Source: a virus (lineage: Duplodnaviria; Heunggongvirae; Uroviricota; Caudoviricetes). From it: 40,504 bases of DNA. Both the position numbers and the translations under genes were made by a program. The notes under the pieces are model-generated. The model saw only the letters and a program-made list of their open reading frames with translations, was not told the origin of the DNA and did not search any database. Where the stretch lies: the IMG/VR virus record IMGVR_UViG_2526164632_000038. One strand, given 5' to 3'. Below, piece by piece: positions 3,555-40,035 of this stretch (positions are counted from its first letter, which is position 1; each line of letters opens with the position of its first letter).

Positions 3555-4417
3555 GCTTAGTCAGCCGTTGTCTCCGGGTGTCGCGTGCGCAGTTGCACGT
3601 CATTCTCAGACGAACCGATGACTGGATGGATAGCCGCCGCAGTCGTCACACTGATGATACGGATGTGCTTCTCCGTATACACCATGTTATCGGAGAGCTG
3701 CCCACGTATGGTTATCGTCGGGTATGGGCGCTGCTTCGCAGACAGGCAGAACTTGATGGTATGCCTGCGATCAATGCCAAACGTGTTTACCGGATCATGC
3801 GCCAGAATGCGCTGTTGCTTGAGCGAAAACCTGCTGTACCGCCATCGAAACGGGCACATACAGGCAGAGTGGCCGTGAAAGAAAGCAATCAGCGATGGTG
3901 CTCTGACGGGTTCGAGTTCTGCTGTGATAACGGAGAGAGACTGCGTGTCACGTTCGCGCTGGACTGCTGTGATCGTGAGGCACTGCACTGGGCGGTGACT
4001 ACCGGCGGCTTCAACAGTGAAACAGTACAGGACGTCATGCTGGGAGCGGTGGAACGCCGCTTCGGCAACGATCTTCCGTCGTCTCCAGTGGAGTGGCTGA
4101 CGGATAATGGTTCATGCTACCGGGCTAATGAAACACGCCAGTTCGCCCGGATGTTGGGACTTGAACCGAAGAACACGGCGGTGCGGAGTCCGGAGAGTAA
4201 CGGAATAGCAGAGAGCTTCGTGAAAACGATAAAGCGTGACTACATCAGTATCATGCCCAAACCAGACGGGTTAACGGCAGCAAAGAACCTTGCAGAGGCG
4301 TTCGAGCATTATAACGAATGGCATCCGCATAGTGCGCTGGGTTATCGCTCGCCACGGGAATATCTGCGGCAGCGGGCTTGTAATGGGTTAAGTGATAACA
4401 GATGTCTGGAAATATAG
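3512..4417 (+). CDS. insD: IS2 transposase OrfB (DDE catalytic domain)
   Basis: 301-aa ORF overlapping orfA in the -1 frame; IS3-family integrase-like core. Confidence 0.85.
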
Positions 4418-4559
4418 GGGCAAATCCAGTAGGCATCACTGCCATAAATCTGCTGAAAATAGCTAATCAGGGTGCTGAGTATCGTCTGATAATCAGGCGC
4501 ACTGATCCCCTCCGCGGTTACCTTTGCAGATAAACCGAGAGAATCAAGGTTCAGAGCCA

Positions 4560-4913
4560 TTACGCCTCCGATTTAACAGTCGTTATTCCATAGAGAGTGT
4601 CGATTTCAGCGGAAAACATGACACGTCGGGTCGTGGTATCCACCGTCGTATTGAAAGAGAGGATTGATTTAACGCCCCGCGTTTCGAGGATGCGCTTACG
4701 GATCGCCAGGTTGTAGGTTTCCGGCTTCTGCTTACCGAGCACAGACTGGATCCACGGGGTCCCTTCGGTGGTGTCGAGAAACCATTGCCCATACCACAAT
4801 TCAAATCGCGTTTTTACCGCCTGCGCCACGGCCTCCGGTGAGTTAATCAGCCAGGTGTCATCACCGCTGCCAAAGGTGTAATCGCCATCGGCGTCTTCAC
4901 GTCTGTATCGCAT
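4560..4913 (-). CDS. Small baseplate protein (gpW/gp25-like position)
   Basis: 117-aa ORF between the V-like and J-like genes; stop/start overlaps with both neighbours. Confidence 0.45.
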   Translation of the reverse strand: MRYRREDADGDYTFGSGDDTWLINSPEAVAQAVKTRFELWYGQWFLDTTEGTPWIQSVLGKQKPETYNLAIRKRILETRGVKSILSFNTTVDTTTRRVMFSAEIDTLYGITTVKSEA

Positions 4914-5665
4914 CAGTTTACCCTATCGGTATTGCTTCCACCGCGCTGAACACCGCCATGAGTGTGCGTATCATCGATTGGCTTGCCGTTAGCCTTCACG
5001 CTCCCCAAAAACTCAACAGCACCAGTGATTTTTGAAGCCACACCAGAAACCACAGACCCCACCATGCCCCCCATCCAGGTTAACAGGCCATGAATGGTTA
5101 CTTTCTCAGAAAAATCAGCCAGAGGGGCAACCACATCAAGACCACCCGGAGCGACAATTTTAATTTTCCTGGTATCAGGATTAAGCTCAAAATAGGTGCT
5201 GCCGTCATCACTACGCAACTGTGTGGCACTGGTATTAATACCGCTAATCCTCCTTGCCTGCGACTGGGGACCGACAATACAAAACGCATCCGATAAATCA
5301 TGCATTCTGTCATCGACCGTCTCCTGTATCCCGCCACTCTGCCACCAGAAATCGATGCAGCGATCGGCAAAAATCACCAGGCATTCATCGCCGGCTTTTA
5401 CCGGGAAAGTTAACGTGCAGCCGCCGCCGCGCGGAAATACCACCGGCACATCCACCAGCAGCGGGTAATTTTTGGTTACGCGGTTGCCGTCGTTGTCGGT
5501 TTCAACCGAACGAATAGCAGGCTGCACAACCGCCGTCACCGCGTCAGGATCGAATGACTGAACGATGCCAGGCAAAGCGACGCGGATCTGGTTCTTTGTG
5601 GTTTCCCGCTCGGATTTGAATGTTTCGGCAAGGTCGCCGCTACGAGTCTGGTCTGATATGGCCAT
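4913..5665 (-). CDS. Baseplate assembly/spike protein (gpV-like)
   Basis: ATG at 5665 preceded by AGGAG (caggagtttatcaaATG); 250 aa; position in baseplate cluster. Confidence 0.45.
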   Translation of the reverse strand: MAISDQTRSGDLAETFKSERETTKNQIRVALPGIVQSFDPDAVTAVVQPAIRSVETDNDGNRVTKNYPLLVDVPVVFPRGGGCTLTFPVKAGDECLVIFADRCIDFWWQSGGIQETVDDRMHDLSDAFCIVGPQSQARRISGINTSATQLRSDDGSTYFELNPDTRKIKIVAPGGLDVVAPLADFSEKVTIHGLLTWMGGMVGSVVSGVASKITGAVEFLGSVKANGKPIDDTHTHGGVQRGGSNTDRVN

Positions 5666-5682
5666 TTGATAAACTCCTGAAA

Positions 5683-5706
5683 ACAAAAAACCCGCCAAGT
5701 GGCGGG
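5683..5706 (-). terminator. Rho-independent terminator closing the AT-rich cassette
   Basis: Minus strand reads CCCGCCACTTGGCGGG followed by TTTTTTGTT. Confidence 0.55.
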
Positions 5707-5900
5707 TCTACAGGAACAACTCTAAGTTTATTTTTCTGTTTAAAATTGTCCAACTCAGGTTCTTTAACGCTTTCTGTCATGTAATCCAATCCACCAAAAG
5801 GTACTTCAAGCATTATACTGCTTTCATAATCAGCCATGGATTGCTCTGCTTGCGTTGGCTTGCTTTGCTGTGAGTTGTCATTATTTGATGTTGTCATCAA

Positions 5901-6122
5901 CTATGCCTTATTTATCAAAAGAAAAGTAACCGATAATATGAAAAAACCGAAAGATAACGCAATTCCTTCAAAAAGATAACGAGCGTAAACTGCCTTTTCT
6001 TTATGAAGACTTTCGATCAATTCAACAGCTTTACCATACTGAAACATATGGTATCTAAGCGTTTTAATTTTATCACCGTAAAATAAAAAATCATGCTCTT
6101 CTTTTCGCTTATGAATAGGCAT
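5901..6122 (-). CDS. Small membrane protein (73 aa) in AT-rich cassette
   Basis: ATG at 6122 (MPIHKRKEEHDFLFYGDK...) directly after the upstream stop; C-terminal hydrophobic helix LFEGIALSFGFFILSVTFLLI; AT-rich. Confidence 0.35.
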   Translation of the reverse strand: MPIHKRKEEHDFLFYGDKIKTLRYHMFQYGKAVELIESLHKEKAVYARYLFEGIALSFGFFILSVTFLLINKA

Positions 6123-6136
6123 TTTTGGTATATCTT

Positions 6137-6454
6137 TCAGTCCCCAAGTACGCCATAGGAAAAAAAGCACATAACAATACAAACAAAGCACAGATATGCA
6201 CAAAGTATAGATAATGTTAAAAACCAATTACTCTTTAGCCCACTTTTGAAATCAACAGTCCCAAATACAGCCAGTAGAGCAGAGGTTTCTACAGCTAAAA
6301 TAGCAAGAAGGTAGTTAACTTTGTCCTCAAGACGACGATATGTTGATTTTGCTTCCTCATATCTATCTTTATAATATGACGAAATAAAATCAGCGCCTAT
6401 AGTCTCAATTGCCTTTTGTTCTTCTGTTGTATCTATTGACGAACGCTTGCTCAT
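6137..6454 (-). CDS. Membrane protein (105 aa) in AT-rich cassette
   Basis: MSKRSSIDTTEEQKAIE... with two hydrophobic segments (LLAILAVETSALLAVFGTV; WFLTLSILCAYLCFVCIVMCFF); AT-rich. Confidence 0.45.
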   Translation of the reverse strand: MSKRSSIDTTEEQKAIETIGADFISSYYKDRYEEAKSTYRRLEDKVNYLLAILAVETSALLAVFGTVDFKSGLKSNWFLTLSILCAYLCFVCIVMCFFSYGVLGD

Positions 6455-6461
6455 TTCTCAA

Positions 6462-6809
6462 TCAACCAACAACTTTCTTACACGGGAAAGAGCCAATAAT
6501 TTTCGGAGCATCCATGCTGTTCTGCAACAACTGGACGTTCAGGAAACGCGTTTTAGTGCCAGGTCGATGGATATACTCGAACCCATAATTGTTGCCATCT
6601 TTGGCAGGCATCAGGTCCATTTTGATCTGCATGCCTGTACCGTCTTTACCCAACATTTTTACTTTTTGGGACGTTACTGTTTCGCCATTGATTTTAAATA
6701 ATGAATCAGGGATCGCATCCATACGAAAGTTGCCGCATTGCATCGTTATGGTGTTTGCACTTACACCAACAGACACTAATGCCAGCAATGAAAATATCCA
6801 TCGTTTCAT
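6462..6809 (-). CDS. Small secreted protein with N-terminal signal peptide (115 aa)
   Basis: ATG at 6809 with GAGAGGA upstream; MKRWIFSLLALVSVGVSA-NT signal-like N-terminus, no lipobox Cys. Confidence 0.5.
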   Translation of the reverse strand: MKRWIFSLLALVSVGVSANTITMQCGNFRMDAIPDSLFKINGETVTSQKVKMLGKDGTGMQIKMDLMPAKDGNNYGFEYIHRPGTKTRFLNVQLLQNSMDAPKIIGSFPCKKVVG

Positions 6810-6811
6810 TT

Positions 6812-7876
6812 CTATAATCCTCTCTGAAAAGCAGTGCTGGATGGCATATCCTGCGCACCGCGCGCTTCGCACATCATATCCATGTACCACGCCTGGCCCC
6901 TTGTATCGCCAGTGTACATAATCCCGCGCACAATATAAACGCCATCCGTTGCGATGCTGGCAGGCTGCGATGTGGTGCCGCTTAGCGTAATATTTCCGTC
7001 CGTGTTCTGGTCGGTGATCTGCCCACCAGCCATAGCGATATCGTTGTTCGACAACGCGGTGCGATATACGGAAGCCTGATCCAGTTGAATGAGCCCATTA
7101 ACCCGGATGTTCGGATTAATAAGCGCGCGAACGTTTACGCCGTTGCCGATGGTCTGCTGCGGCATGCCAATAAGCCCGGTAGCGCTGTTGAGCACAATCG
7201 CTTCGTGAACATATTCATTATTCGCCACCATCTGGCGCTGACCGTCTACGAATTGCCATGTTGCGCCACATTGCCCGGCTACGTTATCCATTAGATGCCG
7301 CGTCATGCCAAAGAGCACCCGCCCCCGGGGGAATACAGTAGCAGGCATTTCAGGCGTCAGGCCTTCGGTCGCACCTTTGGCTTCGAAGTCTTTCATCAGC
7401 GCACGGTTCACATCAGCGACCGTGTAACCGGCAGCCAGCGTCTGTGAGGTTATACTGGTGGCAAAAGCCAGATCAGTATCTGCTGCCTGAATCAGGACGT
7501 AGGAATCAACCGGACTGTCTTTTCCTGTAACCGAGTAGCGAATTTCACCGCTGAAAATCAGTCCGTAGTTGCGGCCATCACTCTGGCCCACGTCCGCCGC
7601 ATCAACCTCCCGCACGATCCCGACGTCGCTTGCCGACACCTCCGGCGCGATACCGTCGTAACCCGCAATCAGACGCACTTTCGAAAACTCCCGCCCGGTG
7701 ATTCGGTTCACAGTATCTGCCGAGAGGTTATAAATTTTGATAGTCCCTACCCGGGACGCGCTGCTGATGTTGAACCAGTCGATCGTAAAGGTCACTTTAA
7801 AATCACTTAGCTCAATTCCCTGACCGTTCCCGTCCACAAGCTGCAGCTCGAAATGTCTCATCCAGTTCTGTGACAT
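6812..7876 (-). CDS. Tail/baseplate hub-region protein
   Basis: 354-aa ORF downstream of the tape measure cluster; operon position. Confidence 0.45.
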   Translation of the reverse strand: MSQNWMRHFELQLVDGNGQGIELSDFKVTFTIDWFNISSASRVGTIKIYNLSADTVNRITGREFSKVRLIAGYDGIAPEVSASDVGIVREVDAADVGQSDGRNYGLIFSGEIRYSVTGKDSPVDSYVLIQAADTDLAFATSITSQTLAAGYTVADVNRALMKDFEAKGATEGLTPEMPATVFPRGRVLFGMTRHLMDNVAGQCGATWQFVDGQRQMVANNEYVHEAIVLNSATGLIGMPQQTIGNGVNVRALINPNIRVNGLIQLDQASVYRTALSNNDIAMAGGQITDQNTDGNITLSGTTSQPASIATDGVYIVRGIMYTGDTRGQAWYMDMMCEARGAQDMPSSTAFQRGL

Positions 7877-7878
7877 GC

Positions 7879-8181
7879 TTACTCCGTTGATACCAGTAAA
7901 TGGCTGCGACCGCCCAGGTCAGTTTTTGTGGGGTAATCCTGTGTGTTGTCATCACAGACCACCACCAGCTTAAAACCAAGCCCCATACAGGCGTACTGCG
8001 CCAGCAGGTCAGCACCAGTGACGAGAGGAATACCGGAGATTACCGGCTCCCCTCTGTCGTTCTGCAGGTCCATAATCCAGTACAGATCGCGCCATATGAT
8101 GCTAATCCGCCAGGTAACACCACCCAGGACGATGCTGAACTGCTGGTTGTCCGCTGTCAGCGGAATTTCCTGAATTGCCAT
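7879..8181 (-). CDS. Small tail protein
   Basis: 100-aa ORF tightly packed in the tail operon. Confidence 0.4.
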   Translation of the reverse strand: MAIQEIPLTADNQQFSIVLGGVTWRISIIWRDLYWIMDLQNDRGEPVISGIPLVTGADLLAQYACMGLGFKLVVVCDDNTQDYPTKTDLGGRSHLLVSTE

Positions 8182-29972: not shown

Positions 29973-31274
29973 ATGCCAGACGTTCATGCACAACTTTCTC
30001 CATCATCAGCGCATCGATGGATGCGCTGCCCAGGAAGTCTGGCGCTGGAGGCCACACAACCGGATAAAGAAACAACTTTTGCAATCGAGGGCACTGCAGC
30101 GCACGCGCTTGCTGAAAAAGTTCTACGAAACAGGCAAAGCCACCCGGAACACTACGCCGGATGCAATGTTTCTATGTTTCTCGGCTCATACCCCCTTCGC
30201 GAAAATCCTGATGATACATCTGGCCCACAGGTGGATGATGAAATGGTCGAAGCCGTTGGCCGGTATGTTGATACGGTCTGGACTCTTGCACAGAATAATG
30301 AACTATTGGTTGAACAACGTGTTGATTTCTCACATATAACGGGGGTGGAAGAATCTTTCGGAACTGCCGACGGCATAATCATCGCTGGTAACGAATTACA
30401 AATCCACGACCTGAAATATGGCAAAGGCGTCCGCATTGATGCAGAACAAAATGAGCAACTACAACTGTATGCTCTGGGTGCGCTCGAACAATTCAGCATG
30501 CTGTATGACTTTGAGACTGTAAGATTATTTATTCACCAGCCAAGGCTCAACCACGTTTCAGAATGGTCGTTAACCGTACAGGAACTTCAGTCTTTCGGTG
30601 AACGGGCACAGGAGGCCGCAACCAGTGCGATCCTTGTTCTCAATATTGCTGAATGCGAAGGCATTGAGACACTACCGCTGGAAAACTTCATACCTGGAGA
30701 AAAACAGTGCCGCTTCTGTAAAGCAAAAGCTATTTGCACTGCCCAGAAAATGCAGCATTTACAAACAGCGGCCAGCGATTTTGAAGATCTGACAAAGCCT
30801 GTCAGCGAAATAATCACCAATGCCAGCGCACGTGTACCTCTGTTAACCATTGAGCAGCTTGCGGAGATCTATAGCCAGGCCGACTTTATTGAATCCTGGC
30901 TAAAGGCAGTACGGGACCGGGTTCACAATGAACTCAATGCCGGACATCCGGTACCGGGGTTTAAACTGGTAACAGGAAAACAAGGTAACCGGGCCTGGAG
31001 TGATGAAGAGGCAGCTCGCGCACTTCTGAAGGACCAGTTCAGGTACAAAACTGAAGAAGTATTCGACTTTAAACTTATTAGTCCCACAAAAGCCGAAAAA
31101 CTTATCAAAAAGGCCAGTCCACGCCGTTGGTCAAAAGTCGAGGCACTGATAACACGAGCTGATGGTAAACCAACCGTCATTCCCGAGTCAGACCCACGCC
31201 CCGCACTCAATATCAACCCTGTAAATGATTTCGACGACGTATCCGACGATACGCTAACCGCAGACCTCATCTGA
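29973..31274 (+). CDS. PD-(D/E)xK nuclease with Cys cluster (Cas4-like; resembles DUF2800-type phage proteins)
   Basis: N-terminal RWMRCPGS Cys plus C-terminal [10 protein letters not shown] cluster; nuclease-like motif ...IHDLKYGKG. Confidence 0.6.
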
Positions 31275-31289: not shown

Positions 31290-31838
31290 ATGAAACTGAA
31301 GCTGAACAATGTTCGTCTGGCCTTCCCGTCTCTGTTTGAAGCTAAAACTGTAAACGGCGAAGGCGATCCGCGTTTCTCCGCAGTATTTTTAATGTCTCCC
31401 AAACACCCACAACTGGAAGAAATCCGTAAAGCTATGAAGCAGGTAGCGAAGGAAAAATGGGGAGAGAAGTGGGAGCCCATTTATAACCAGCTGGAGAAAA
31501 AACTCAATCTGTGCCTGCATGATGGTGATGAAAAAGCAGAGTATGAAGGCTTCCCCGGTAATTTCTTCCTGAATGCTGCTAACAAAGCGCGCCCAGCTGT
31601 TCTTGATCGCGATCGTTCGCCACTTATTCAGGCTGACGGACGTCCCTATGCAGGGTGCTATGTAAACGCCGTTATCGATATCTGGGCACAGGACAATAAT
31701 TTCGGTAAACGCATTAATGCCTCACTCGGCGGAGTCCAGTTCCTGCGAGACGGCGATGCATTCGCTGGCGGCGGAGTGGCAAGCGCTGACGATTTCGACG
31801 ATATCAGCGAAGGTGCTGATGCTGAAGCACTAATTTAA
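31290..31838 (+). CDS. Phage single-strand DNA-binding-like protein (resembles DUF2815-type)
   Basis: 182-aa ORF with acidic C-terminal tail ADDFDDISEGADAEALI; sits between the nuclease and polymerase genes. Confidence 0.5.
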   Translation: MKLKLNNVRLAFPSLFEAKTVNGEGDPRFSAVFLMSPKHPQLEEIRKAMKQVAKEKWGEKWEPIYNQLEKKLNLCLHDGDEKAEYEGFPGNFFLNAANKARPAVLDRDRSPLIQADGRPYAGCYVNAVIDIWAQDNNFGKRINASLGGVQFLRDGDAFAGGGVASADDFDDISEGADAEALI

Positions 31839-31853: not shown

Positions 31854-31872
31854 GCCCGGTTAAACACCGGGC
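31854..31872. terminator. Bidirectional hairpin between convergent genes
   Basis: GCCCGGT-TAAAC-ACCGGGC perfect stem between the SSB-like stop and the reverse-oriented membrane gene stop; no clear U-tract. Confidence 0.3.
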
Positions 31873-31890
31873 TACTGATTAGGCGTATAA

Positions 31891-32520
31891 TCACTCAGGA
31901 ATCTTAATCTTTCTCAATTCTTTATTTAGTTCACAGATCTTTTTCTTAGACGGGAAAGTATCATACATCCAAAAACCAACAGTCTCTAAAACTATTATCA
32001 TAACCATATACACAAGATAATTTAAAAGGCCTTCATTTTGCCCTATGGAAATAATGCAGATAATAGAAAAAAGGGTAAACAGCACAAAACACAGAAAGGA
32101 AAACAGACGACTAATAATAAATAAAAAACCTGAAAAATCAACATTAATAAAAAACACTCCGTTATCTTTCTCTATATAATTCTGAAGCTTAATCAACTGA
32201 TTTATATACTGTCTTTTTTCTAATCTATTGCAAATGTAAATAACATCTCTTCGGTTATAAGATGATTGCAATTTCAGCGCATCACGAATAATTTTATCAT
32301 TTATTCTTTTTTCTATGGCACTCTTATCCTCCTCATCCAGATAACGTTCATACTTAACTAAATATAAAATTAACTTCTTAACATATTTAGGCTCTTTATA
32401 CTTATAATTAAAAATGATCTTTCTTATCCAGACTCCCATAACAATCAAACATGAAAAAATATATCCAGCTATTTTCTCCAGATGCTCTGTATGGTCAATC
32501 AAGTATTGGATCATATGCAT
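31891..32520 (-). CDS. AT-rich reverse-oriented membrane protein (209 aa), unknown function
   Basis: Opposite strand to the surrounding operon; very AT-rich; N-terminal TM (IAGYIFSCLIVMGVWI), Lys-rich central domain, C-terminal TM pair. Confidence 0.55.
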   Translation of the reverse strand: MHMIQYLIDHTEHLEKIAGYIFSCLIVMGVWIRKIIFNYKYKEPKYVKKLILYLVKYERYLDEEDKSAIEKRINDKIIRDALKLQSSYNRRDVIYICNRLEKRQYINQLIKLQNYIEKDNGVFFINVDFSGFLFIISRLFSFLCFVLFTLFSIICIISIGQNEGLLNYLVYMVMIIVLETVGFWMYDTFPSKKKICELNKELRKIKIPE

Positions 32521-32566
32521 AATTAATCTTTTAATCAGTTAATAGAATAAAAACCAAGGTAAACAC

Positions 32567-34630
32567 ATGTCCAATATACTATGGGGCGACCTGGAAACCT
32601 ATTGCGAAATCCCTATTACGAACGGTACCCATGCGTATGCCGAAGGCGTTGAAGTGATGCTTTTCGCATGGGCTATCAACGACGGGCCAGTAAACGTGTG
32701 GGATATCACTGCCGGTGGTGGTATTCCACACGGCTTATACGAAGCAATCGCAGACCCTGAAACCCTGCTTTATTTCCATAACTCTCACTTCGACCGCACC
32801 GTTCTGCGTTATGCAATGCCGCGCCTGGCACCGCCAGTCGAACGTTGGCGCGACACAATGGTGCAGGCGCTGGCGCACGGTCTCCCGGGGTCTCTGGGGG
32901 AACTCTGCGAAGTACTAGGCGTCCCGCAAGACAAAGCGAAGGACAAAGAAGGTAAAGCGCTGATCCAGCTGTTCTGTAAGCCACGCCCGAAAAACAGCAA
33001 ACTGCGCCGGGCCACCAGCAAAACCCACCCGGAAGAATGGCGGCGCTTTGTTGCTTACGCCGGACTGGATATCGAGGCAATGCGCGAAGTCTATAAACGT
33101 CTGCCGAAGTGGAATTATCAGGGGACAGAACTGGCGCTCTGGCATCGTGATCAGCAGATCAATGACCGGGGCGTCTGCATGGACGTGGAACTCGCACGCG
33201 CTGCGATCGACGCGGTAGACCAGGAACAAAAGCGCCTGGCAAAGCGTACACAGGAAATGACTGATGGCGAAGTGCAGGCAGCCACACAACGAGACGCGTT
33301 GATTAAGCACATTGTTGAATCCTACGGTGTGGAGCTACCAGACATGCAACGCAGTACTCTGGAACGTCGTATTGCCGACCCCGATTTACCATCTGCCGTG
33401 AAAGAACTGCTGGCTATCCGCCTGCAGGCCAGTACTACCAGCACCAGTAAATACAAGGCACTGATGAAAGGCGTAAGCCACGACGGGCGCTTACGCGGTA
33501 CGCTACAGTTCTGCGGGGCGTCACGTACCGGTCGTTGGGCCGGACGGCTATTCCAGCCCCAGAACCTTCCCCGCCCTTCACTAAAACAGGAACAAATAGA
33601 CGAAGGCATCGAAGCACTGAAAGCCGGATGTGCAGACCTGCTGTTTGACAATATCATGGAACTAACCAGTTCAGCGTTACGTGGCTGCATTATCGCGCCA
33701 ACAGGCAAAAAGCTGGTGGTAAGTGACTTGTCGAACATTGAAGGCCGTATGCTGGCATGGCTGGCGGGAGAAGAATGGAAACTGAATGCATTCAGAGAGT
33801 ACGACGCCGGAACGGGTCCGGACTTATATAAACTGGCGTATGCAAAAGCTTTCGATATTGCACCAGATGATGTTGATAAACACATGCGTCAGATCGGTAA
33901 AGTCATGGAACTCGGTCTGGGTTATGGTGGTGGTGTGTCGGCCTTCATCACTTTTGCACTGGTTTACGATCTCGATCTCGACGAGCTGGCGAACGCCGCA
34001 CTACCAAACATTCCCCGCGATGTTATCCGCGAGGCGAAAAGCTGGTACGACGAATCGGTTAAACGCAAGTCAACCTACGGGCTTTCTGAACGGGTATTTA
34101 TCGCCTGCGACTCACTTAAACGTCTCTGGCGCCGGGCGCATCCCGCGACCTGTGATTTCTGGTACGAACTGGAGCGCACCGTCCGCACTGCAATCGCCAC
34201 ACCGCAAAAAACATTGTATTGCGGTTATCTTAAAATCCGCCGCGATGGCGCGTGGCTGCGCATACAGCTACCATCCGGACGCGCTGTATGCTACCCGTCT
34301 CCGGTTATCGAAAAAGGGAATATCACCTACATGGGGGTTAACTCTTATTCGCGTAAATGGCAACGACTCAAAACCTACGGCGGAAAGCTGGTGGAGAACA
34401 TCACCCAGGCGGCCGCCCGCGACATTCTGGCCGGAAACATGCCGCTTATCGAAGATGCCGGTTACAGCATTGTGCTGACGGTACACAACGAGGTGATCAC
34501 CGAAGCACCTGACACAGAAGATTTCAACGATAAAGCGCTTTCCGCGCTTCTCTCCACTGACCCCGAATGGGCGCCCGATATCCCACTGAACGCTGGCGGT
34601 TTTGAGGCGTACCACTACAAAAAAGATTGA
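32567..34630 (+). CDS. Family A DNA polymerase with 3'-5' exonuclease domain
   Basis: Exo motifs DLETY, HNSHFD, YAGLD; pol motif A DLSNIEGR; motif [15 protein letters not shown]; motif C position reads VHNEV. Confidence 0.8.
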
Positions 34631-34694
34631 TATAACTCACCTTATCGAGCTATGGCGACATGCTGAATTCGAGTAAATTAAAGGAACAATACTT

Positions 34695-35456
34695 ATGCAG
34701 GAACTAACTGAAATGCCGATCACCTATCCATACCCGAGAGAAACTTTTCCTGACTTTTTGAGGGAGTGTGGGTTCACCAATTTTTCCCACGAACAGCGTG
34801 AGACTTGTGACTGCTATCGTTTAACGAATGGCGTAATTGTTAACCTTTACACCACCCGGACCATTCAGTTTCAAGGTAACCCTCAAGAACGTCCCAATGT
34901 TGAAACTGCAATAATGACCCATTTAGGAACGCCGCCCACGGCAACACCACTAGCCGTAGAACAGCCATCTGAGCTCCCCAAAAAGATATTCATTGTTCAC
35001 GGCCATGACCATACTGCAAAGGAGCAACTTGAGCTAATCCTTCATAAACTTGGATTACCAGACCATTTCATTTTGCAGAATACGGGAGGGACTGGACTCA
35101 CCATTATTGAAGAGCTTGAACGTGAAATTGGGCAAGGACAAACTGCTACCCGTTTCGGGATTGTTCTTTTGACACCTGATGATATGGGATACTCAAAGCG
35201 CGCCGGTGAAGCAGAAATCCAACCCCGCGCAAGACAGAACGTTGTACTCGAGATGGGTATGCTTCTTTCGTCCTTAGGGCGCAGCAATGTAGCAATCCTT
35301 CAGAAACAGCACCTAGAACAGCCTTCTGATGCTAACGGGATTTTGTATCTGAATTTCAACGACCATGTACGTGAAACAGTTCCTCGTCTAGTGCAACGGT
35401 TACAAAATTCTGGTTTCGAATTTACACAAGCTCAAATAGCTAACGCTTCCTCGTAA
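34695..35456 (+). CDS. TIR-like domain protein (candidate defence effector)
   Basis: C-terminal region KIFIVHGHDHTAKEQLELILHKLGLPDHFILQNTGGTGLTIIEELE...LLTPDDMGY...PRARQNVVLEMGMLL matches my recollection of the TIR-like nucleotide-binding family (FIVHGHD start, LTPDD, conserved Glu in NVxxExG); N-terminal 95 aa unassigned. Confidence 0.55.
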   Translation: MQELTEMPITYPYPRETFPDFLRECGFTNFSHEQRETCDCYRLTNGVIVNLYTTRTIQFQGNPQERPNVETAIMTHLGTPPTATPLAVEQPSELPKKIFIVHGHDHTAKEQLELILHKLGLPDHFILQNTGGTGLTIIEELEREIGQGQTATRFGIVLLTPDDMGYSKRAGEAEIQPRARQNVVLEMGMLLSSLGRSNVAILQKQHLEQPSDANGILYLNFNDHVRETVPRLVQRLQNSGFEFTQAQIANASS

Positions 35457-35479
35457 TTACCCCTTATTGTTGATTACAA

Positions 35480-35504
35480 CCCTGCATCGCGGGGTTTTTT
35501 ATTT
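35480..35504 (+). terminator. Rho-independent terminator after the TIR-like gene
   Basis: CCCTGC-ATC-GCGGGG hairpin followed by TTTTTTATTT. Confidence 0.5.
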
Positions 35505-35519
35505 GGGAATAAAAACCCT

Positions 35520-35654
35520 ATGTCATTTAAATACCGGGACAGTCCGCTTTATTACCGGACTGTGCGGGAGGCTTTGCACCTTGAACAGTCCGGCGGGTAC
35601 GACCGGGCGATGCAGGTCTGGGCCAAAGCGAACGTCGGTTTGATTTTTGTCTGA
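35520..35654 (+). CDS. Small ORF (44 aa), possible small regulator
   Basis: MSFKYRDSPLYYRTVREALHLEQSGGYDRAMQVWAKANVGLIFV; no strong SD; below the ORF-track cutoff. Confidence 0.2.
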   Translation: MSFKYRDSPLYYRTVREALHLEQSGGYDRAMQVWAKANVGLIFV

Positions 35655-35690
35655 TGCAGAACATGCGCGAAAAGCGTAAGGAGGTGGACG

Positions 35691-35885
35691 ATGTCTAATA
35701 TCGATAATAAGGGTTGGGGGTTCCCCGCTCTGTCAAAAAAAGCACATTTCTTTAATTCGGGGGAAGCCATATCACTATGCGGAAAATGGATGTTCATAGG
35801 TATCAGGATTGATGAATGGCATGACCATCCTGAGAACTGCGCTATCTGCATGAAGAAACGCAAAAAGCAGGAAGGCGAAAGCTAA
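35691..35885 (+). CDS. Small Cys-containing protein (64 aa)
   Basis: Strong SD AAGGAGGTG 5 nt upstream of ATG; stop overlaps the next start. Confidence 0.45.
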   Translation: MSNIDNKGWGFPALSKKAHFFNSGEAISLCGKWMFIGIRIDEWHDHPENCAICMKKRKKQEGES

Positions 35886-36172
35886 TGGCCTATGAACGTG
35901 AAAACCTAATCGAAAAGCACCTCGTCGCTGAAGTAAAAAAGGCTGGCGGGGTTGCCTTTAAGTTCGTATCCCCCGGTCGCCGCTCGGTACCAGATCGCAT
36001 TGTTCTGCTACCCGGCGGTCGTATCATTTTCGTTGAATGTAAATCCCCCGGCAAGCCACCACGGCCTGACCAGTTGCGCGAACACGGACGGTTGCGCGCG
36101 CTGGGCTTTACCGTAGTGGTGCTGGATAGCAAAAATCTGGAGGCCATTATTTTAAGCCGCAATAAAGGATAA
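35885..36172 (+). CDS. VRR-NUC-type PD-(D/E)xK nuclease
   Basis: 95-aa protein with VPDRIV ... FVECK motif. Confidence 0.55.
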   Translation: MAYERENLIEKHLVAEVKKAGGVAFKFVSPGRRSVPDRIVLLPGGRIIFVECKSPGKPPRPDQLREHGRLRALGFTVVVLDSKNLEAIILSRNKG

Positions 36173-36184
36173 AAGACTTATGCT

Positions 36185-36766
36185 TTAATCCGTATTTTTA
36201 ACACGTATTTCGAAACACCCTTTTAATTTAGCTATTTCCTTTTTAGAGGACATGATTGTGAATCTCATCCCTTTTAAATCATTAACAAATTCAAATTTTG
36301 CGCTATTTGACTCACAATCACCAACAACAAAACCACTACCAAATGAATTGAGCAACACTTTAGTATTACTACCATCTACCATATAATATTCGTTATTTTT
36401 AAATGCAGTAACCTTCCCGAATGTATAGCTCAATATCAACAACGTTATCACCCCTAAAGGAAAAGCTGACTTTAGGATTTTTAAATCGATATAATAAAAT
36501 ACGTTCTTATACTCTGCAAGCCTCCCAAATTTTCTAATGCTCTCCATATGATGTTCGTGTCTCTTACTATGGATTGGCATGGACACCACATTGTGATAAT
36601 TCAACAAAAGCATAGCAAATAATAAAATATCCTGAACACTCATCACAGAAGTTTTGGAGAAATAACCAAAAGGCCAATGAAATCCTATTATACAAATATT
36701 AGCCATTAGCATAACAACTATAAATACAATAAATGGAACATAATATTTCCCTTTCAAATCAAACAT
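36185..36766 (-). CDS. AT-rich reverse-oriented membrane protein (about 193 aa), unknown function
   Basis: Three hydrophobic segments in the N-terminal half, soluble C-terminal 80 aa; ATG at 36766 overlaps the upstream gene stop by 8 nt. Confidence 0.5.
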   Translation of the reverse strand: MFDLKGKYYVPFIVFIVVMLMANICIIGFHWPFGYFSKTSVMSVQDILLFAMLLLNYHNVVSMPIHSKRHEHHMESIRKFGRLAEYKNVFYYIDLKILKSAFPLGVITLLILSYTFGKVTAFKNNEYYMVDGSNTKVLLNSFGSGFVVGDCESNSAKFEFVNDLKGMRFTIMSSKKEIAKLKGCFEIRVKNTD

Positions 36767-36980
36767 CAACGCCGCATATAAGGCGCCGAGAAATAAAAAC
36801 TAAAAACAAAAGCCACACAGCCGAATACAATAGCGTATTTAAGTCTATTTTAATAAAAAGGTCTGGATAGCCATAATACGATGCAACACCTTTCTGAAAA
36901 GAATATGCCATCGCATAAGCTAACGCTGAAAACATAGTTAATAAAGAAACTTGCTTTGTAAATATTTTCGCCAGGGGCAT
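36759..36980 (-). CDS. AT-rich small membrane protein (73 aa), first gene of the reverse-oriented pair
   Basis: Two hydrophobic helices (VSLLTMFSALAYAMAYSF; LLYSAVWLLFLVFI). Confidence 0.45.
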   Translation of the reverse strand: MPLAKIFTKQVSLLTMFSALAYAMAYSFQKGVASYYGYPDLFIKIDLNTLLYSAVWLLFLVFISRRLICGVDV

Positions 36981-37043
36981 ACCCGCCTCCGTTAGTTATA
37001 TATATAGAGAGAGAAGTGACCATATTCTACCATAGGTGTATTA

Positions 37044-38438
37044 ATGAATAGCATATTCCACCCCAGAGTTTATCAAAACCTCATAATCAATCACCAAACT
37101 AACATTCTGCGCGGCAACATCTGGGCGGGTATGGGAATGGGTAAAACCGTGGCAACGCTCACTGCGCTGGAAGATCTCTTTATGGCAGGGGCAGAAACAT
37201 GCCCCGCACTGGTCCTCGCGCCGCTGCGCGTGGCTGCCAGCACATGGCCGGATGAAGCACTGAAGTGGGGACATTTGCGCAATATCGAGGTGCAGCCAAT
37301 TATTGGTAATGCCAAAGCGCGCTCTATGGCGCTGACGAACAGCAACGCAAGCGTGTTCACCATCAACTACGATAACCTTGTCTGGCTGATTGAAGAATTG
37401 GGAGAACGATGGCCGTTCGGTACTGTCATTCCAGATGAAAGCACCCGGCTAAAATCCTTCCGGCTGCGCGGTGGTGGTAAGCGCGCGGCGGCGCTGGGCA
37501 AAGTGGCGCATAAGTATGTCCGGCGCTGGATAAATCTCACCGGTACGCCAGCACCGAACGGCCTGGTAGATTTGTGGGGACAATCGTGGTTTGTGGACCA
37601 GGGGCAACGTCTCGGGCGCACTTACGGCGCGTTTACCTCACGCTGGTTCAACTCGATACAGTTTCCGGGGCAGAGCTGGACCAAACTGGAGCCTTTTGCT
37701 CACTCACAGGGTGAAATACAGCGAGCGTTAGCCGATGTAACCCTCTCGCTGGATGCGGCCGACTGGTTCGATATCAAAGACCCCATCCATAACGTAATCC
37801 GCGTGGATATGCCACCGAAGGCCCGTCAGCAGTATCGTGAAATGGAAAAGGAAATGTTCCTCGAGCTGAATGGCGAAGGCATCGAAGCACCGAACGCCGC
37901 GGCAAAGACACTGAAGTGTCTGCAAATCGCCAGCGGCGCAGTATACACAGATGACACCGGAAGTTGGTCAGAACTGCATGACACCAAACTACAGGCGCTG
38001 GACAGCATACTGACCGAAGCAGCTGGCGCACCTGTGCTGGTTGCTTATCACTGGAAACACGATCTTGAACGCTTGCTTAAAGCATTCCCTCGCGGTCGTC
38101 ACCTCGACCAGGATCCACAGACACTGCGCGACTGGAATTCCGGAAAGATTCCTGTTCTCTTTGCACACCCAGCCAGCGCGGGCCACGGCCTGAACATGCA
38201 GGACGGCGGAAATATACTGGTATTTTTCTCACACTGGTGGGACCTGGAGCAATATCAGCAAATTATTGAACGTATCGGCCCCACCAGGCAGATACAGGCC
38301 GGACACAATCGTCCGGTATTTATTCACCACATTATTGCTGCCGACACTATGGATGAAATGGTGATGGAGCGGCGCAACTCAAAACGAACAGTGCAGGACA
38401 TCCTGCTCGATGCCATGAAAAAGAGAGGTATAGCATGA
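37044..38438 (+). CDS. SNF2/DEAD-like superfamily 2 helicase
   Basis: Walker A GMGMGKT, motif II IPDEST, C-terminal helicase domain. Confidence 0.7.
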   Translation: MNSIFHPRVYQNLIINHQTNILRGNIWAGMGMGKTVATLTALEDLFMAGAETCPALVLAPLRVAASTWPDEALKWGHLRNIEVQPIIGNAKARSMALTNSNASVFTINYDNLVWLIEELGERWPFGTVIPDESTRLKSFRLRGGGKRAAALGKVAHKYVRRWINLTGTPAPNGLVDLWGQSWFVDQGQRLGRTYGAFTSRWFNSIQFPGQSWTKLEPFAHSQGEIQRALADVTLSLDAADWFDIKDPIHNVIRVDMPPKARQQYREMEKEMFLELNGEGIEAPNAAAKTLKCLQIASGAVYTDDTGSWSELHDTKLQALDSILTEAAGAPVLVAYHWKHDLERLLKAFPRGRHLDQDPQTLRDWNSGKIPVLFAHPASAGHGLNMQDGGNILVFFSHWWDLEQYQQIIERIGPTRQIQAGHNRPVFIHHIIAADTMDEMVMERRNSKRTVQDILLDAMKKRGIA

Positions 38439-38635
38439 GCGAGAAACCCGACGATTTACTCACCCCGGATGAAGTATGCCAAAAGTTAGGTATTACACAG
38501 AAAACGCTATGTGAGTGGAATATTAAGCATCGTCATCGGGCTATCCTGGCACCAATTCGTTTCAGTGCAAAAGTAGTTCGTTATGAGCGCCGAAATATCG
38601 ACGCTTTTATTCAAAAATGTCGCAGCCAGTATTAA
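38435..38635 (+). CDS. AlpA/excisionase-like small HTH protein
   Basis: 66 aa, LTPDEVCQKLGITQKTLCEW HTH; start overlaps helicase stop (ATGA); 3' end overlaps the convergent integrase stop. Confidence 0.55.
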   Translation: MSEKPDDLLTPDEVCQKLGITQKTLCEWNIKHRHRAILAPIRFSAKVVRYERRNIDAFIQKCRSQY

Positions 38636-40035
38636 CCTCGCCGCCGTAGCAATGCCACCTGCGCAAGTATGCTCCGCTCGTGAGCCTCGAAAGCTTCGCG
38701 CTTCAACGCAATCTCTTCCTGTAAAATCTCATCAGAAAAGTCGTAATGTTCTGCCATCGGGTCATCTGACTTGCTGGAGTGGTGAAGGCAAAGGAGGCTG
38801 ATTTCCCTTCGGTCTGAGCGGGAATAGCCTCTTTCCTTCATCAAGGCAATAACATTGCTCTTAAGGAATTTACGGCACATCGTATTAAATGCACCGTCTT
38901 TCCCTTTAACAGTCCCATCATGTTTTATTCCTTTTACAGCCCCGTCCGGGCTGTATGTTTTCACCAGCTTATCCAGTGATCGTTTTGAAAATGGCTGCAT
39001 TGGATCACGTGGCTGCAAAAATACATAATCCCTGTTGCACTCAGGAACTGAATCACGCCAGGCTTTCTGCTCGTCGATAATCCGCCGGATCTCAGGGGTT
39101 ATCGGCAGGCGGAAAGCCTTTTGTGTTTTCATAGCCCCTCGCATGCCGATAACCCCTTCCGGATAAACAATTTCACCAGCCTCCTCGTGAACGTAGTCCC
39201 AGCGCAGGTTATGGACATTAATCGGACGAACACCAGTGATGATCATGAAGCGAACAGCATTCTTCTGGTGTACAGAGGTGCAGGCAGCAACATTGAGCCA
39301 GAGTCGGGCGATTGATTCAATATCGGTAAAAAGCCGTGTGGGGGTAGGTTTCTGTACGCGGGAGGAAACATAATCATCTGGCAGACTGGCGGCAACATTG
39401 CGGCCGTTGCAAAGAGTAGGTGCGCAGAACTTCCAGAACCGACGGAGCTCGGCAAACAACTCCAGGGCGTTATTGTTCGAGCGAGTAGCGATCCACTCGT
39501 CCAGCACTTCCACCAGCCGATTGTATGTTACGTCGCTGAACACCTCGCGCTCGCCGAACGTTGCTTTAATCCGGTCGATACGCACCCCGTAGGTTGTGAA
39601 ACTGTCCGGGCTCAGCTTCTGCCGGGCGACTTTGGCTTTGAGGTCATCCCGGTACATTTCCAGCGCTGCATGTACGGACTCTGCCCGCAGGCCACCGTCA
39701 GCCATACCTAGCGCTTTTTCGCGCGCCAGCTGGATAGCGAGCTCCGGCCACTCGCCGAGCTTTTTACCTTTGAGGCCCATCTTTTTTGGAAACTCGGCGT
39801 AAAATGTAACCTTACCGGCTTTGCTGAAATCGATACGGAGATAGTTCTCTTTTTCGTATTTGGAACGGCGAGCCACGCCGGAAGCAGCGAGGATGATTTT
39901 GGCGGCAGCAACACAGATTTTCATGTGTGCGCTAGTATAGGGGGGTTTACAGGCGTCCCATTTTTCAGAAGCGGCTAAAACATCGTCATTATTGGGGCTA
40001 TCCGGATTATGTGTTACAGTGCGCGGCATTCTCAA
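38632..40035 (-). CDS. Tyrosine-type site-specific integrase
   Basis: About 465-aa ORF at the prophage edge, adjacent to an AlpA-like gene and the host gene; catalytic residues not individually verified. Confidence 0.7.
   Translation of the reverse strand: MRMPRTVTHNPDSPNNDDVLAASEKWDACKPPYTSAHMKICVAAAKIILAASGVARRSKYEKENYLRIDFSKAGKVTFYAEFPKKMGLKGKKLGEWPELAIQLAREKALGMADGGLRAESVHAALEMYRDDLKAKVARQKLSPDSFTTYGVRIDRIKATFGEREVFSDVTYNRLVEVLDEWIATRSNNNALELFAELRRFWKFCAPTLCNGRNVAASLPDDYVSSRVQKPTPTRLFTDIESIARLWLNVAACTSVHQKNAVRFMIITGVRPINVHNLRWDYVHEEAGEIVYPEGVIGMRGAMKTQKAFRLPITPEIRRIIDEQKAWRDSVPECNRDYVFLQPRDPMQPFSKRSLDKLVKTYSPDGAVKGIKHDGTVKGKDGAFNTMCRKFLKSNVIALMKERGYSRSDRREISLLCLHHSSKSDDPMAEHYDFSDEILQEEIALKREAFEAHERSILAQVALLRRRG

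What the first reader, a model, noticed from the sequence alone, without database searches (positions are those of the whole stretch)
34695..35456. TIR-like domain protein carried as cargo in the prophage replication operon
A 253-aa protein sits directly after the DNA polymerase and is followed by its own terminator (35480..35504). Its C-terminal 150 aa carries the motifs I associate with TIR-like nucleotide-binding domains (FIVHGHD, LLTPDD, NVVLEMG with a conserved Glu), fused to an unrecognised 95-aa N-terminal domain. It is not needed for replication by any logic I know, so it is a candidate single-gene anti-phage or abortive-infection effector.
Basis: partly seen in the sequence, partly recalled or inferred. 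Interest (0 to 1): 0.75.

Follow-up and report, generated by a model that had tools for sequence, protein, structure and literature searches.

The report
Prophage-borne sensor–TIR NADase defence candidate
An E. coli prophage carries, as optional cargo next to its DNA polymerase, a small two-domain protein with a variable sensor domain and a highly conserved NAD+-cleaving TIR domain; it is most likely a single-gene anti-phage suicide switch from a family already listed as an untested defence candidate.

Summary
A 253-aa ORF (34695..35456, +) follows the family-A DNA polymerase and ends with its own terminator.

- **Already catalogued.** The whole protein matches PADLOC candidate PDC-S35 (E = 7e-109), one of 145 untested 'phage defence candidates'.
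- **Cargo, not core.** Only 37 of 159 E. coli genomes with this polymerase carry the gene. Other genes, or none, fill the slot.
- **Kept after prophage decay.** The gene stays intact in a decayed Proteus prophage.
- **Mobile elsewhere.** Relatives lie in integrative elements, beside an integron-type integrase, in type I R-M systems and beside other defence genes.
- **N-domain identified.** The 'unrecognised' N-terminal domain resembles the RNase HIII N-domain and the RnlA/LsoA NRD. It evolves fast (40% vs 76% identity for TIR). It also occurs fused to the validated dCTP-deaminase defence enzyme and to a multi-pass membrane protein.
- **RNase HI link.** In 12 of 80 species an RNase HI gene directly abuts the TIR gene.

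Verdict: a new member of a known kind (sensor plus TIR NADase, abortive infection). The trigger is unknown; an RNase HI or RNA:DNA-hybrid link is an untested lead.

The parts
34631..34694 (+). 64-nt spacer between the polymerase stop and the TIR gene start, with an AAGGAA ribosome-binding site at 34681-34686. No convincing sigma-70 promoter.
   Evidence: Sequence read directly. The promoter scan lists no site here. The RBS block is conserved in five genera while the rest of the spacer is not.
34695..35456 (+). Complete 253-aa gene: sensor domain, linker and TIR domain (PADLOC PDC-S35 family, PHROG 16442).
   Evidence: ORF list. PADLOC PDLC05003 E = 6.8e-109 over the full length. PHROG 16442 E = 2.4e-109. 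RefSeq and GenBank call it a 'TIR domain-containing protein'.
34716..34928 (+). N-terminal alpha/beta domain (about residues 8-78; helix, four strands, helix) with the motif G46..N..Y.T(G)T.Q.QG61. It resembles the RNase HIII N-domain and the RnlA/LsoA NRD. Presumed sensor or regulatory module.
34929..34982 (+). Linker, residues 79-96, low-confidence in the model and hypervariable.
   Evidence: pLDDT < 50 for residues 80-94. Mean pairwise identity is 15% and length ranges from 9 to 32 residues in the family.
34983..35414 (+). TIR domain of the CAP12/Pycsar type (about residues 97-240). Putative catalytic Glu186 is encoded at 35250-35252.
35478..35504 (+). Intrinsic-terminator-like hairpin plus T-run that closes the cassette.
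   Evidence: Terminator scan. A hairpin with changed stem sequence is kept at the same place in E. coli, Serratia, Yersinia, Providencia and Proteus.
32567..34630 (+). Context: phage family-A DNA polymerase, the upstream border of the variable slot.
   Evidence: PF00476. The gene is conserved in 159 E. coli genomes while the slot content varies.
35520..35690 (+). Context: disrupted ANR-family regulator gene, the downstream border of the slot.
   Evidence: Frameshifted compared with intact 71-aa versions. RefSeq marks it 'frameshifted' in IAI1.

Best explanation
The gene encodes a self-contained anti-phage abortive-infection protein that a temperate E. coli phage carries as accessory cargo.

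**Shown**
- The C-terminal domain is a CAP12/Pycsar-type TIR domain with the family's conserved residues present, including Glu186.
- The N-terminal 78 residues form a separate, fast-evolving alpha/beta domain joined by a flexible linker.
- The gene is optional within its phage lineage.
- The family is widespread, horizontally mobile and often sits beside defence genes.

**Inferred**
- In uninfected lysogens the protein is held inactive.
- On infection by another phage the N-domain perceives a cue. That brings TIR domains together into an active head-to-tail assembly, as shown for TIR-STING, TIR-SAVED and SpbK.
- Glu186 then hydrolyses NAD+. NAD+ depletion stops the cell and the infecting phage, which protects sister lysogens and hence the prophage.

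**Most speculative step: the cue.** The N-domain resembles the RnlA NRD, which associates with RNase HI, and the RNase HIII hybrid-binding domain. An RNase HI gene directly abuts the TIR gene in 12 of 80 species. I therefore favour a cue tied to RNase HI or to RNA:DNA hybrids made during phage replication.
For: **TIR identity**
- PF10137 scores E = 2.9e-31.
- PDB sequence hits are only Cap12 and PycTIR, with NVVLEMG aligned to NVVFEFG.

**Defence-candidate status**
- The full-length match to PDC-S35 has E = 6.8e-109.
- Payne et al. defined that family by embedding inside BREX, DISARM and type I R-M systems.

**Accessory status**
- 37 of 159 E. coli genomes with this polymerase carry the gene.
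- The slot otherwise holds an ATP-binding protein, YfbU, Ant, or nothing; DUF4406, DUF7446 and a methyltransferase occupy adjacent positions further down.

**Benefit to the host**
- The gene is intact (87% identity) in a Proteus prophage remnant whose polymerase is frameshifted and whose SNF2 helicase is truncated.

**Other mobile and defence contexts**
- V. cholerae integrative element.
- Integron-type integrase with Mrr and PemK.
- An island with DUF4062 (the Evangelion family), a reverse transcriptase and toxin-antitoxin pairs.
- HsdS or HsdM directly adjacent.
- MADS, AriA, OLD-like ATPase and Cas1 among the immediate neighbours.

**Sensor/effector signature**
- The N-domain averages 40% identity, the linker 15% and the TIR domain 76%.
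- P0010 has a 99%-identical TIR domain but a 44%-identical N-domain.
- The same N-domain is fused to the validated dCTP-deaminase defence enzyme (PADLOC dCTPase E = 7e-173) and to a multi-pass membrane protein.

**No conserved partner**
- 454 neighbouring ORFs fall into 417 clusters.

**Precedent**
- SpbK has a 94-aa sensor, a linker and a TIR domain. It is an NADase activated by clustering on a phage portal.

**RNase HI lead**
-.
Against: - No experiment exists on any member of the family; no paper mentions PDC-S35 or the RefSeq protein.
- No sigma-70-like promoter was found in front of the gene. It sits in the repressed early/replication operon, so expression in the lysogen is unproven.
- The gene co-diverges with the polymerase in Serratia, Yersinia and Providencia prophages: TIR 65-74% identity, polymerase 74-76%. 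That would also fit a role for the phage itself.
- The TIR part of the model has only moderate confidence, with pLDDT 58-86.
- The N-domain of the window protein has net charge -4, which is atypical for a nucleic-acid binder.
- No RNase HI gene is adjacent in the window.
Confidence: 0.68

Rival explanations
1. The gene serves the phage's own lytic cycle. Expressed with the replication operon, the TIR enzyme would remodel the host nucleotide or NAD+ pool, exclude superinfecting phages only during lytic growth, or destroy or mimic NAD-derived immune signals of host systems (counter-defence).
For: The gene lies in the same orientation as the replication operon, 64 nt after the polymerase, with no recognisable promoter. 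It co-diverges with the polymerase over several genera and always sits in one of the two slots flanking that polymerase. Induced phages (vB_EcoM-606R2 and relatives) carry it in their genome records.
Against: The gene is absent from 77% of E. coli relatives of the same phage. Most family members are not in phages at all; they lie in chromosomal islands, R-M systems and integrative elements. The gene is kept intact in a dead prophage. Only 4 of 50,697 phage records have a homologue. All characterised PF10137 relatives that turned up here are host suicide effectors.
Confidence: 0.12
2. The protein is the signal-producing half of a two-part Thoeris-like system. The TIR domain would make a cADPR-type messenger that activates a separate effector, for example one of the AT-rich membrane proteins encoded nearby (31891..32520 or 36185..36980).
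For: ThsB-type proteins are also small TIR proteins with an extra domain. SpbK makes N1-cADPR as well as ADPR. Two membrane-protein genes of foreign composition lie within 3 kb.
Against: No neighbour is conserved across contexts. The membrane-protein genes are replaced by other genes in phage 606R2 and in the Serratia and Yersinia prophages, which keep the TIR gene. One of them is frameshifted in this window. Neither matches any PADLOC or Pfam model. PF10137 TIR domains are known as effectors, not signal producers.
Confidence: 0.08
3. The protein is a nucleotide-metabolism enzyme of the replication module, such as an N-glycosidase or deoxyribosyltransferase-like enzyme acting on (d)NMPs, and is not an immune protein.
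Against: Sequence places the protein firmly in PF10137 and only weakly anywhere else. The best structural matches are TIR domains. DUF4406 sits at a different position, after the ANR gene. The family is embedded in R-M systems and defence islands, and its N-domain is shared with a defence deaminase.
Confidence: 0.05
4. The protein is a virulence-type TIR protein, like TcpC, BtpA or TirS, that interferes with animal Toll-like receptor signalling.
For: E. coli and other pathogens secrete TIR proteins, and BtpA appears among weak structural matches.
Against: It belongs to a different Pfam family; TIR_2 was hit by only 2 of 113 members, at E > 0.2. No signal peptide or delivery domain was recognised. 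The family is common in free-living Dehalococcoidia, Verrucomicrobiota, Acidobacteriota and marine bacteria.
Confidence: 0.02

Closest known systems
PADLOC 'phage defence candidate' PDC-S35 (Payne et al., bioRxiv 10.1101/2024.01.29.577857); PHROG 16442
   Same: The match runs end to end (E = 6.8e-109, model positions 3-245 of 245) with the same single-gene layout. The window gene is a member of this catalogued family.
   Different: PDC-S35 is only a computational candidate, one of 145 untested systems. No phenotype, mechanism or description of the N-domain was found in the literature searched.
SpbK of Bacillus subtilis ICEBs1 (single-gene TIR abortive-infection system)
   Different: The SpbK sensor is a 4-helix bundle that docks on the SPbeta portal clip; here the sensor is an alpha/beta RNase HIII-N/NRD-like domain. 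The TIR domains are only 18% identical, with no sequence-level match. The trigger here is unknown.
Cap12 (TIR-STING) of CBASS and PycTIR of Pycsar
   Same: They share the Pfam TIR family (PF10137) and the catalytic motif NVV(F/L)E(F/M)G, and they are the closest solved structures. Those enzymes deplete NAD+ after filament formation.
   Different: Those effectors sense a cyclic nucleotide through a STING or cNMP-binding domain and need an adjacent cyclase. The window protein has neither: the NCBIfam Cap12 equivalogs score 35 bits against a cut-off of 450, and no cyclase gene is nearby.
RnlA/LsoA toxins (NRD domain) and the RNase HIII N-terminal domain
   Same: The N-domain shares the fold and the '..G..v..Y.tGt.q.QG' motif. 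The RnlA NRD associates with RNase HI and is needed for control of the toxin (PMC5308261). RNase HI genes abut the TIR gene in 12 of 80 species.
   Different: The effector there is a HEPN RNase or an RNase H catalytic domain, not a TIR domain. The similarity is remote and statistically marginal. RnlA has a dedicated antitoxin, RnlB, and no counterpart is seen here.
dCTP deaminase defence enzyme (Tal et al., bioRxiv 10.1101/2021.04.26.441389; PADLOC 'dCTPase')
   Same: Some dCTP deaminases (P0179, P0257, P0223, P0153) carry the same N-terminal domain in front of the kinase-deaminase body. Both effectors are single proteins that deplete an essential nucleotide.
   Different: The effector chemistry differs. 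The characterised E. coli dCTP deaminase (576 aa) starts directly with the kinase P-loop and lacks this domain.

Membership tests
Pfam PF10137 CAP12/Pycsar-type TIR domain | Profile HMM score above the curated gathering threshold | tested here: met
   108.4 bits against a cut-off of 24.7, E = 2.9e-31, profile positions 1-118 of 119. All 113 aligned homologues also match.
Pfam PF10137 CAP12/Pycsar-type TIR domain | Conserved Glu in the helix after strand C (catalytic Glu of TIR NADases) | tested here: met
   Glu186 in NVVLEMG aligns with the Glu of NVVFEFG in Cap12 chains 7un8 and 9lmq and of NVHLEFG in PycTIR 8jsj. It is invariant in 113 sequences. That this Glu is catalytic comes from published work on other TIR NADases, such as SpbK E192.
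Pfam PF10137 CAP12/Pycsar-type TIR domain | TIR (flavodoxin-like, five-stranded) fold | tested here: met
Pfam PF10137 CAP12/Pycsar-type TIR domain | NAD+ glycohydrolase activity | not testable with these tools
   Needs purified protein or NAD+ measurement in cells.
CBASS Cap12 / Pycsar PycTIR effectors | Cyclic-nucleotide sensor domain fused to the TIR domain, and whole-protein equivalog score | tested here: not met
   NCBIfam Cap12 equivalogs score 34.8 and 30.5 bits against a cut-off of 450, over the TIR core only. The N-domain is RNase HIII-N/NRD-like, not STING, SAVED or cNMP-binding.
CBASS Cap12 / Pycsar PycTIR effectors | Adjacent CD-NTase or pyrimidine cyclase gene | tested here: not met
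   The neighbours are the polymerase, a disrupted ANR regulator, VRR-NUC, SNF2 and unannotated membrane ORFs.
PADLOC PDC-S35 candidate | Full-length match to the family model, single-gene layout | tested here: met
   PDLC05003 E = 6.8e-109, residues 10-253 against model positions 3-245 of 245. No conserved neighbour in 80 loci apart from the RNase HI subset.
PADLOC PDC-S35 candidate | Protection against phage | not testable with these tools
   The authors list the 145 candidates as untested. No paper mentions PDC-S35.
SpbK | N-terminal 4-helix-bundle sensor that binds a portal clip domain | tested here: not met
   The predicted N-domain is helix, four strands, helix. The SpbK N-domain is a 4-helix bundle. 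No sequence match to SpbK was found in PDB.
Thoeris (ThsB + effector) | Conserved adjacent effector gene that senses the TIR product | tested here: not met
   454 neighbouring ORFs fall into 417 clusters. The window neighbours vary between related prophages.
RNase HIII N-domain / RnlA-LsoA NRD (for residues 8-78) | Sequence-profile similarity | tested here: inconclusive
   The top two PDB hits of the N-domain profile are RNase HIII (E 0.023) and the LsoA NRD (E 0.045). Pfam RnlA_toxin is sub-threshold in 19 and DUF3378 in 7 of 113 members. One homologue carries a precomputed PF15935 hit. hhalign against E. coli RnlA aligns NRD residues 147-170 with E = 0.0016 but probability 16%.
RNase HIII N-domain / RnlA-LsoA NRD (for residues 8-78) | Same fold | tested here: met
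RNase HIII N-domain / RnlA-LsoA NRD (for residues 8-78) | Functional link to RNase HI or to RNA:DNA hybrids | tested here: inconclusive
   An RNase HI gene (PF00075, E about 1e-43) directly abuts the TIR gene in 12 of 80 species-representative loci, mostly with a TGATG or TAATG overlap. There is none next to the window gene. Binding cannot be tested here.

The most novel reading that the evidence does not exclude
The N-terminal domain may be a portable infection-sensing module related to the RnlA NRD. It would report on RNase HI or on RNA:DNA hybrids, and evolution would have plugged it onto at least four different suicide effectors: a TIR NADase (this gene), a dCTP deaminase, a multi-pass membrane protein and the HEPN RNase of RnlA/LsoA. 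If so, perturbation of RNase HI or R-loops by replicating phage DNA would be a general danger signal in bacterial immunity. The long-unexplained dependence of RnlA on RNase HI would then be one case of a wider principle.
Probability: 0.25. Interest if true: 0.75.

Novelty: new member of a known kind. Interest (0 to 1): 0.45.

Why it matters
If confirmed, this would turn one of PADLOC's untested candidates (PDC-S35) into a validated single-gene defence. It would be found in roughly 0.7% of complete E. coli genomes (37 of 5,426) and in hundreds of species across many phyla. It would also add a second worked example, after SpbK, of a minimal 'sensor plus TIR' abortive-infection protein.

For phage therapy and phage ecology, it is one more prophage-borne determinant of host range.

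The more interesting pay-off is the sensor. It is shared with a validated dCTP-deaminase defence. It resembles the RNase HI-associated NRD of RnlA. In 12 of 80 species its gene directly abuts an RNase HI gene, mostly with overlapping stop and start codons. That gives a concrete, cheap experimental route to how these nucleotide-depleting systems detect infection, which is an open question for dCTP deaminase and RnlA alike.

Tried and rejected
2. **Literature searches.** Searches for PDC-S35, for the RefSeq protein WP_001157067, and for TIR with prophage and NADase found no study of this family.
3. **SpbK homology.** Rejected as membership: the sensor fold differs and the TIR domains are only 18% identical.
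4. **Thoeris-like pairing with the nearby AT-rich membrane genes.** Rejected: the neighbours are not conserved, one is frameshifted, and neither has a Pfam or PADLOC hit.
5. **Own promoter.** The scan found none in the 64-nt spacer, and my reading by eye found only weak -10-like hexamers. Expression is left open.
6. **Widening the RnlA NRD family for a better profile-profile test.** The word-indexed search returned only 3 sequences, so only a single-sequence hhalign was possible.
7. **tRNA at the integration site.** None is in the window.
8. **PADLOC scan of 150 immediate neighbours.** It shows defence genes next to family members, but the output does not allow a clean enrichment statistic.
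Full report
**1. The observation**

The window is a near-complete E. coli prophage. The stretch 32567-37100, which spans the polymerase, the finding and its downstream neighbours, is 99.9% identical to strain FDAARGOS_1059 and 99.6% to IAI1. The replication module (29900-38500) is about 98% identical, over 88% of its length, to the phage records vB_EcoM-606R2, 611R5 and 689R2.

Its replication module reads as follows:

| Coordinates | Strand | Feature |
|---|---|---|
| 29973..31274 | + | DUF2800 / PD-(D/E)XK |
| 31290..31838 | + | Enc34-type ssDNA-binding protein |
| 31891..32520 | - | AT-rich ORF |
| 32567..34630 | + | family-A DNA polymerase |
| 34695..35456 | + | the finding |
| from 35520 | + | disrupted ANR regulator |
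| 35885..36172 | + | VRR-NUC |
| 36185..36980 | - | AT-rich gene |
| 37044..38438 | + | SNF2 helicase |
| 38632..40035 | - | long minus-strand ORF at the position of the integrase annotated in IAI1 |

The 253-aa ORF, its three motifs and the terminator at 35478..35504 are all present as described. The gene has lower G+C (about 0.46) than the polymerase (about 0.55).

**2. What the protein is**

*TIR domain*
- Residues 97-222 match Pfam PF10137 (CAP12/Pycsar effector TIR) at E = 2.9e-31.
- The only solved proteins found by sequence are Cap12 (TIR-STING) and PycTIR. NVVLEMG aligns with their NVVFEFG and NVHLEFG motifs.
- An AlphaFold model built from 113 homologues has mean pLDDT 73.8.
- Glu186 and many other TIR-domain residues are invariant in 113 homologues.

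*Family assignment*
- The full-length protein matches PADLOC model PDC-S35 (E = 6.8e-109) and PHROG 16442, of unknown function.
- PDC-S35 is one of 145 untested 'phage defence candidates'. They were proposed because their genes are found embedded in BREX, DISARM and type I R-M systems.
- I found no experimental paper on the family.

**3. Cargo or core?**

*Within E. coli*
- Of 5,426 complete E. coli genomes, 159 carry this polymerase region and only 37 carry the TIR gene.
- Relatives put an ATP-binding protein, YfbU or Ant in this place, or nothing; DUF4406, DUF7446 and a methyltransferase occupy adjacent positions further down.
- When nothing is there, the polymerase gene is followed within 5 nt by the ANR regulator gene.
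- So the gene is an insertion-like cassette with its own ribosome-binding site and terminator. The terminator hairpin is kept, with different stem sequences, in five genera.

*Across genera*
- The gene is an old companion of this phage lineage. It sits in the same slot in Serratia, Yersinia and Providencia prophages.
- There it has diverged about as much as the polymerase: TIR 70, 74 and 65% identity against polymerase 74, 74 and 76%.
- In a Salmonella relative it sits in the other variable slot, upstream of the polymerase.
- In Proteus mirabilis the prophage is a wreck. The polymerase is frameshifted, the helicase is cut to 113 residues, and DUF2800 and the ssDNA-binding protein are remnants. 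The TIR gene is still intact and 87% identical. That fits selection for a host-beneficial function.

**4. The wider family**

- The word-indexed search finds more than 2,700 proteins of about 250 aa.
- A pattern scan of one genome per species finds 237 species across Proteobacteria, Acidobacteriota, Verrucomicrobiota, Chloroflexota, Bacteroidota, Campylobacterota, Cyanobacteria, Firmicutes, Actinobacteria and one archaeal MAG.
- Contexts sampled:
  - an integrative element with a relaxase and an AAA_13 ATPase in V. cholerae;
  - an integron-type integrase with Mrr and PemK;
  - an island with DUF4062 (the recently validated Evangelion family), a reverse transcriptase and ParDE/YoeB pairs;
  - HsdS or HsdM directly abutting;
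  - MADS, AriA, OLD-like ATPase, Cas1 and methyltransferase genes among 150 immediate neighbours.
- Clustering 454 neighbouring ORFs from 80 species gives 417 clusters, so there is no general partner gene.

**5. The N-terminal domain**

*Fold and homology*
- The domain folds confidently (pLDDT about 90) as helix, four strands, helix.
- Four independent but individually weak lines point the same way:
  - A profile of 36 N-domains searched against all PDB sequences puts RNase HIII (3vn5, E 0.023) and the NRD of LsoA (5hy3, E 0.045) first and second.
  - Pfam RnlA_toxin (19 members) and DUF3378, the RNase HIII N-domain (7 members), appear among the sub-threshold hits of 113 members, alongside RMMBL (14 members).
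  - Foldseek finds the N-domain of T. ammonificans RNase H3 bound to an RNA/DNA hybrid.
- hhalign against E. coli RnlA aligns the shared 'tGt.q.QG' hairpin within the NRD, at low probability.

*Sensor-like evolution*
- Mean pairwise identity is 40% for the N-domain, 15% for the linker and 76% for the TIR domain.
- One homologue has a 99%-identical TIR domain with a 44%-identical N-domain.

*Fusion to other effectors*
- An exhaustive HMM search with the N-domain alone finds 939 representatives.
- Among the best 150, 33 carry the TIR domain.
- Eight carry the body of the dCTP-deaminase defence enzyme. For P0179 the PADLOC dCTPase model scores E = 7e-173, and the domain sits in front of the kinase P-loop.
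- At least one, P0220, is followed by a multi-pass membrane region.
- dCTP deaminase is an experimentally validated nucleotide-depletion defence whose trigger is unresolved.

**6. The RNase HI lead**

- In 12 of 80 species-representative loci an RNase HI gene (PF00075, E about 1e-43, with its conserved acidic residues present in the sequences I read) directly abuts the TIR gene.
- Eleven lie downstream, nine of them with a TGATG or TAATG stop/start overlap. One lies upstream, in Hymenobacter.
- The loci come from Verrucomicrobiota, Chloroflexota, Acidobacteriota, Bacteroidota and one unplaced candidate lineage.
- The TIR proteins in those loci carry the same N-domain.
- Published work shows that the NRD of RnlA associates with RNase HI in vivo. 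RNase HI both stimulates RnlA and is needed for RnlB to silence it (PMC5308261).
- The N-domain of the window protein is acidic (net charge -4; family mean -0.7). To me that fits a protein partner at least as well as direct nucleic-acid binding.
- None of this is shown for the E. coli gene, which has no adjacent RNase HI.

**7. Mechanism**

*Shown:* a two-domain protein with a variable N-domain and a CAP12-type TIR domain that keeps its conserved residues; accessory and mobile; associated with defence genes.

*Inferred from established knowledge of TIR NADases:* activation by induced proximity or filament formation, followed by Glu-dependent NAD+ hydrolysis and abortive infection. The precedents are TIR-STING, TIR-SAVED, SPARTA and SpbK.

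*Speculative:* the cue is tied to RNase HI or to RNA:DNA hybrids.

The main weakness is expression. No promoter was detected and the gene lies in the repressed early operon, so a role during the phage's own lytic cycle cannot be excluded.

**8. Comparison and novelty**

- The protein is a member of PF10137 and of PADLOC PDC-S35.
- It is not a CBASS or Pycsar effector: it has no cyclic-nucleotide sensor and no cyclase, and the NCBIfam equivalogs fall far below their cut-off.
- It is not a SpbK homologue in the useful sense, although it most likely works like SpbK.
- It is therefore a new, catalogued but uncharacterised member of a known kind.
- What this analysis adds: the identity and modularity of the sensor domain, the quantified cargo status, retention after prophage decay, and the RNase HI adjacency.

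**Scores:** interest 0.45; confidence in the defence-NADase explanation 0.68.

Noticed in passing
window 35520..35690: The ANR-family regulator gene just after the TIR terminator is disrupted. The first 38 or so residues match the intact 71-aa protein of related prophages, then the frame is lost, and the C-terminal 'FCLMQNMREKRK' reappears in another frame. RefSeq marks the IAI1 copy 'frameshifted'. ORFs of matching size (76 and 75 aa) occupy the same position after the TIR gene in the Yersinia and Providencia prophages, but their identity was not checked.
   Followed up: partly
window 36185..36980 (- strand): An AT-rich gene (G+C about 0.33) of foreign composition lies between VRR-NUC and the SNF2 helicase. 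Its N-terminal region is strongly hydrophobic (by eye). Relative to the 265-aa CDS of IAI1, the window has a 2-bp deletion near 36799 that splits it into 194-aa and 73-aa ORFs. It has no Pfam or PADLOC hit. Phage 606R2 carries different genes in this slot.
   Followed up: partly
window 31891..32520 (- strand): A very AT-rich (G+C 0.28) 209-aa ORF lies on the opposite strand between the ssDNA-binding protein and the polymerase. It has hydrophobic stretches (by eye) and no Pfam or PADLOC hit. This is a second variable slot. It holds DUF4145 in Serratia, YfdP plus DUF2303 in Yersinia, and Nmad5, the TIR gene, DUF2335 and Bro-N in Salmonella.
   Followed up: partly
L017 and L018 (Proteus mirabilis), 3870..8068: This is a prophage remnant next to the host rnc-era-recO-pdxJ-acpS genes. 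The polymerase is frameshifted and the SNF2 helicase is truncated to 113 residues. The TIR gene and VRR-NUC are intact, and a SIR2_2-domain gene lies about 3.4 kb upstream.
   Followed up: partly
L029, L070, L071, L082, L083, L087, L088, L090, L092, L094, L095, L103: These are two-gene TIR-RNase HI cassettes, with stop and start mostly overlapping as TGATG, in Verrucomicrobiota, Chloroflexota, Acidobacteriota, Bacteroidota and one unplaced candidate lineage. No other flanking gene is shared between them.
   Followed up: partly
P0179, P0257, P0223, P0153 (dCTP deaminase fusions); P0220 (membrane fusion): The N-domain of the finding is also found at the N-terminus of full dCTP-deaminase defence enzymes and of a 428-aa multi-pass membrane protein. 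Many of the 939 hits are short metagenomic fragments and were not classified.
   Followed up: partly
L014 (E. coli B-JRPT-4119) 2572..3600; L015 2991..3290; L016 3777..4034 and 4284 onward: Related prophages carry other cargo between the polymerase and the helicase. Examples are a minus-strand 'ATP-binding protein', DUF4406 (a nucleoside deoxyribosyltransferase-like fold related to TIR), DUF7446, and cytosine or SAM-dependent methyltransferases. This stretch is a cargo hotspot worth mining.
   Followed up: no
L002-L004 7716..7976; L007 7721..7933; L008 1753..1977: In several non-phage contexts a small ORF of 70-86 aa with no Pfam hit lies 25-70 nt upstream of the TIR gene on the same strand. 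I did not test whether these ORFs are related to each other or act as regulators or antitoxins.
   Followed up: no
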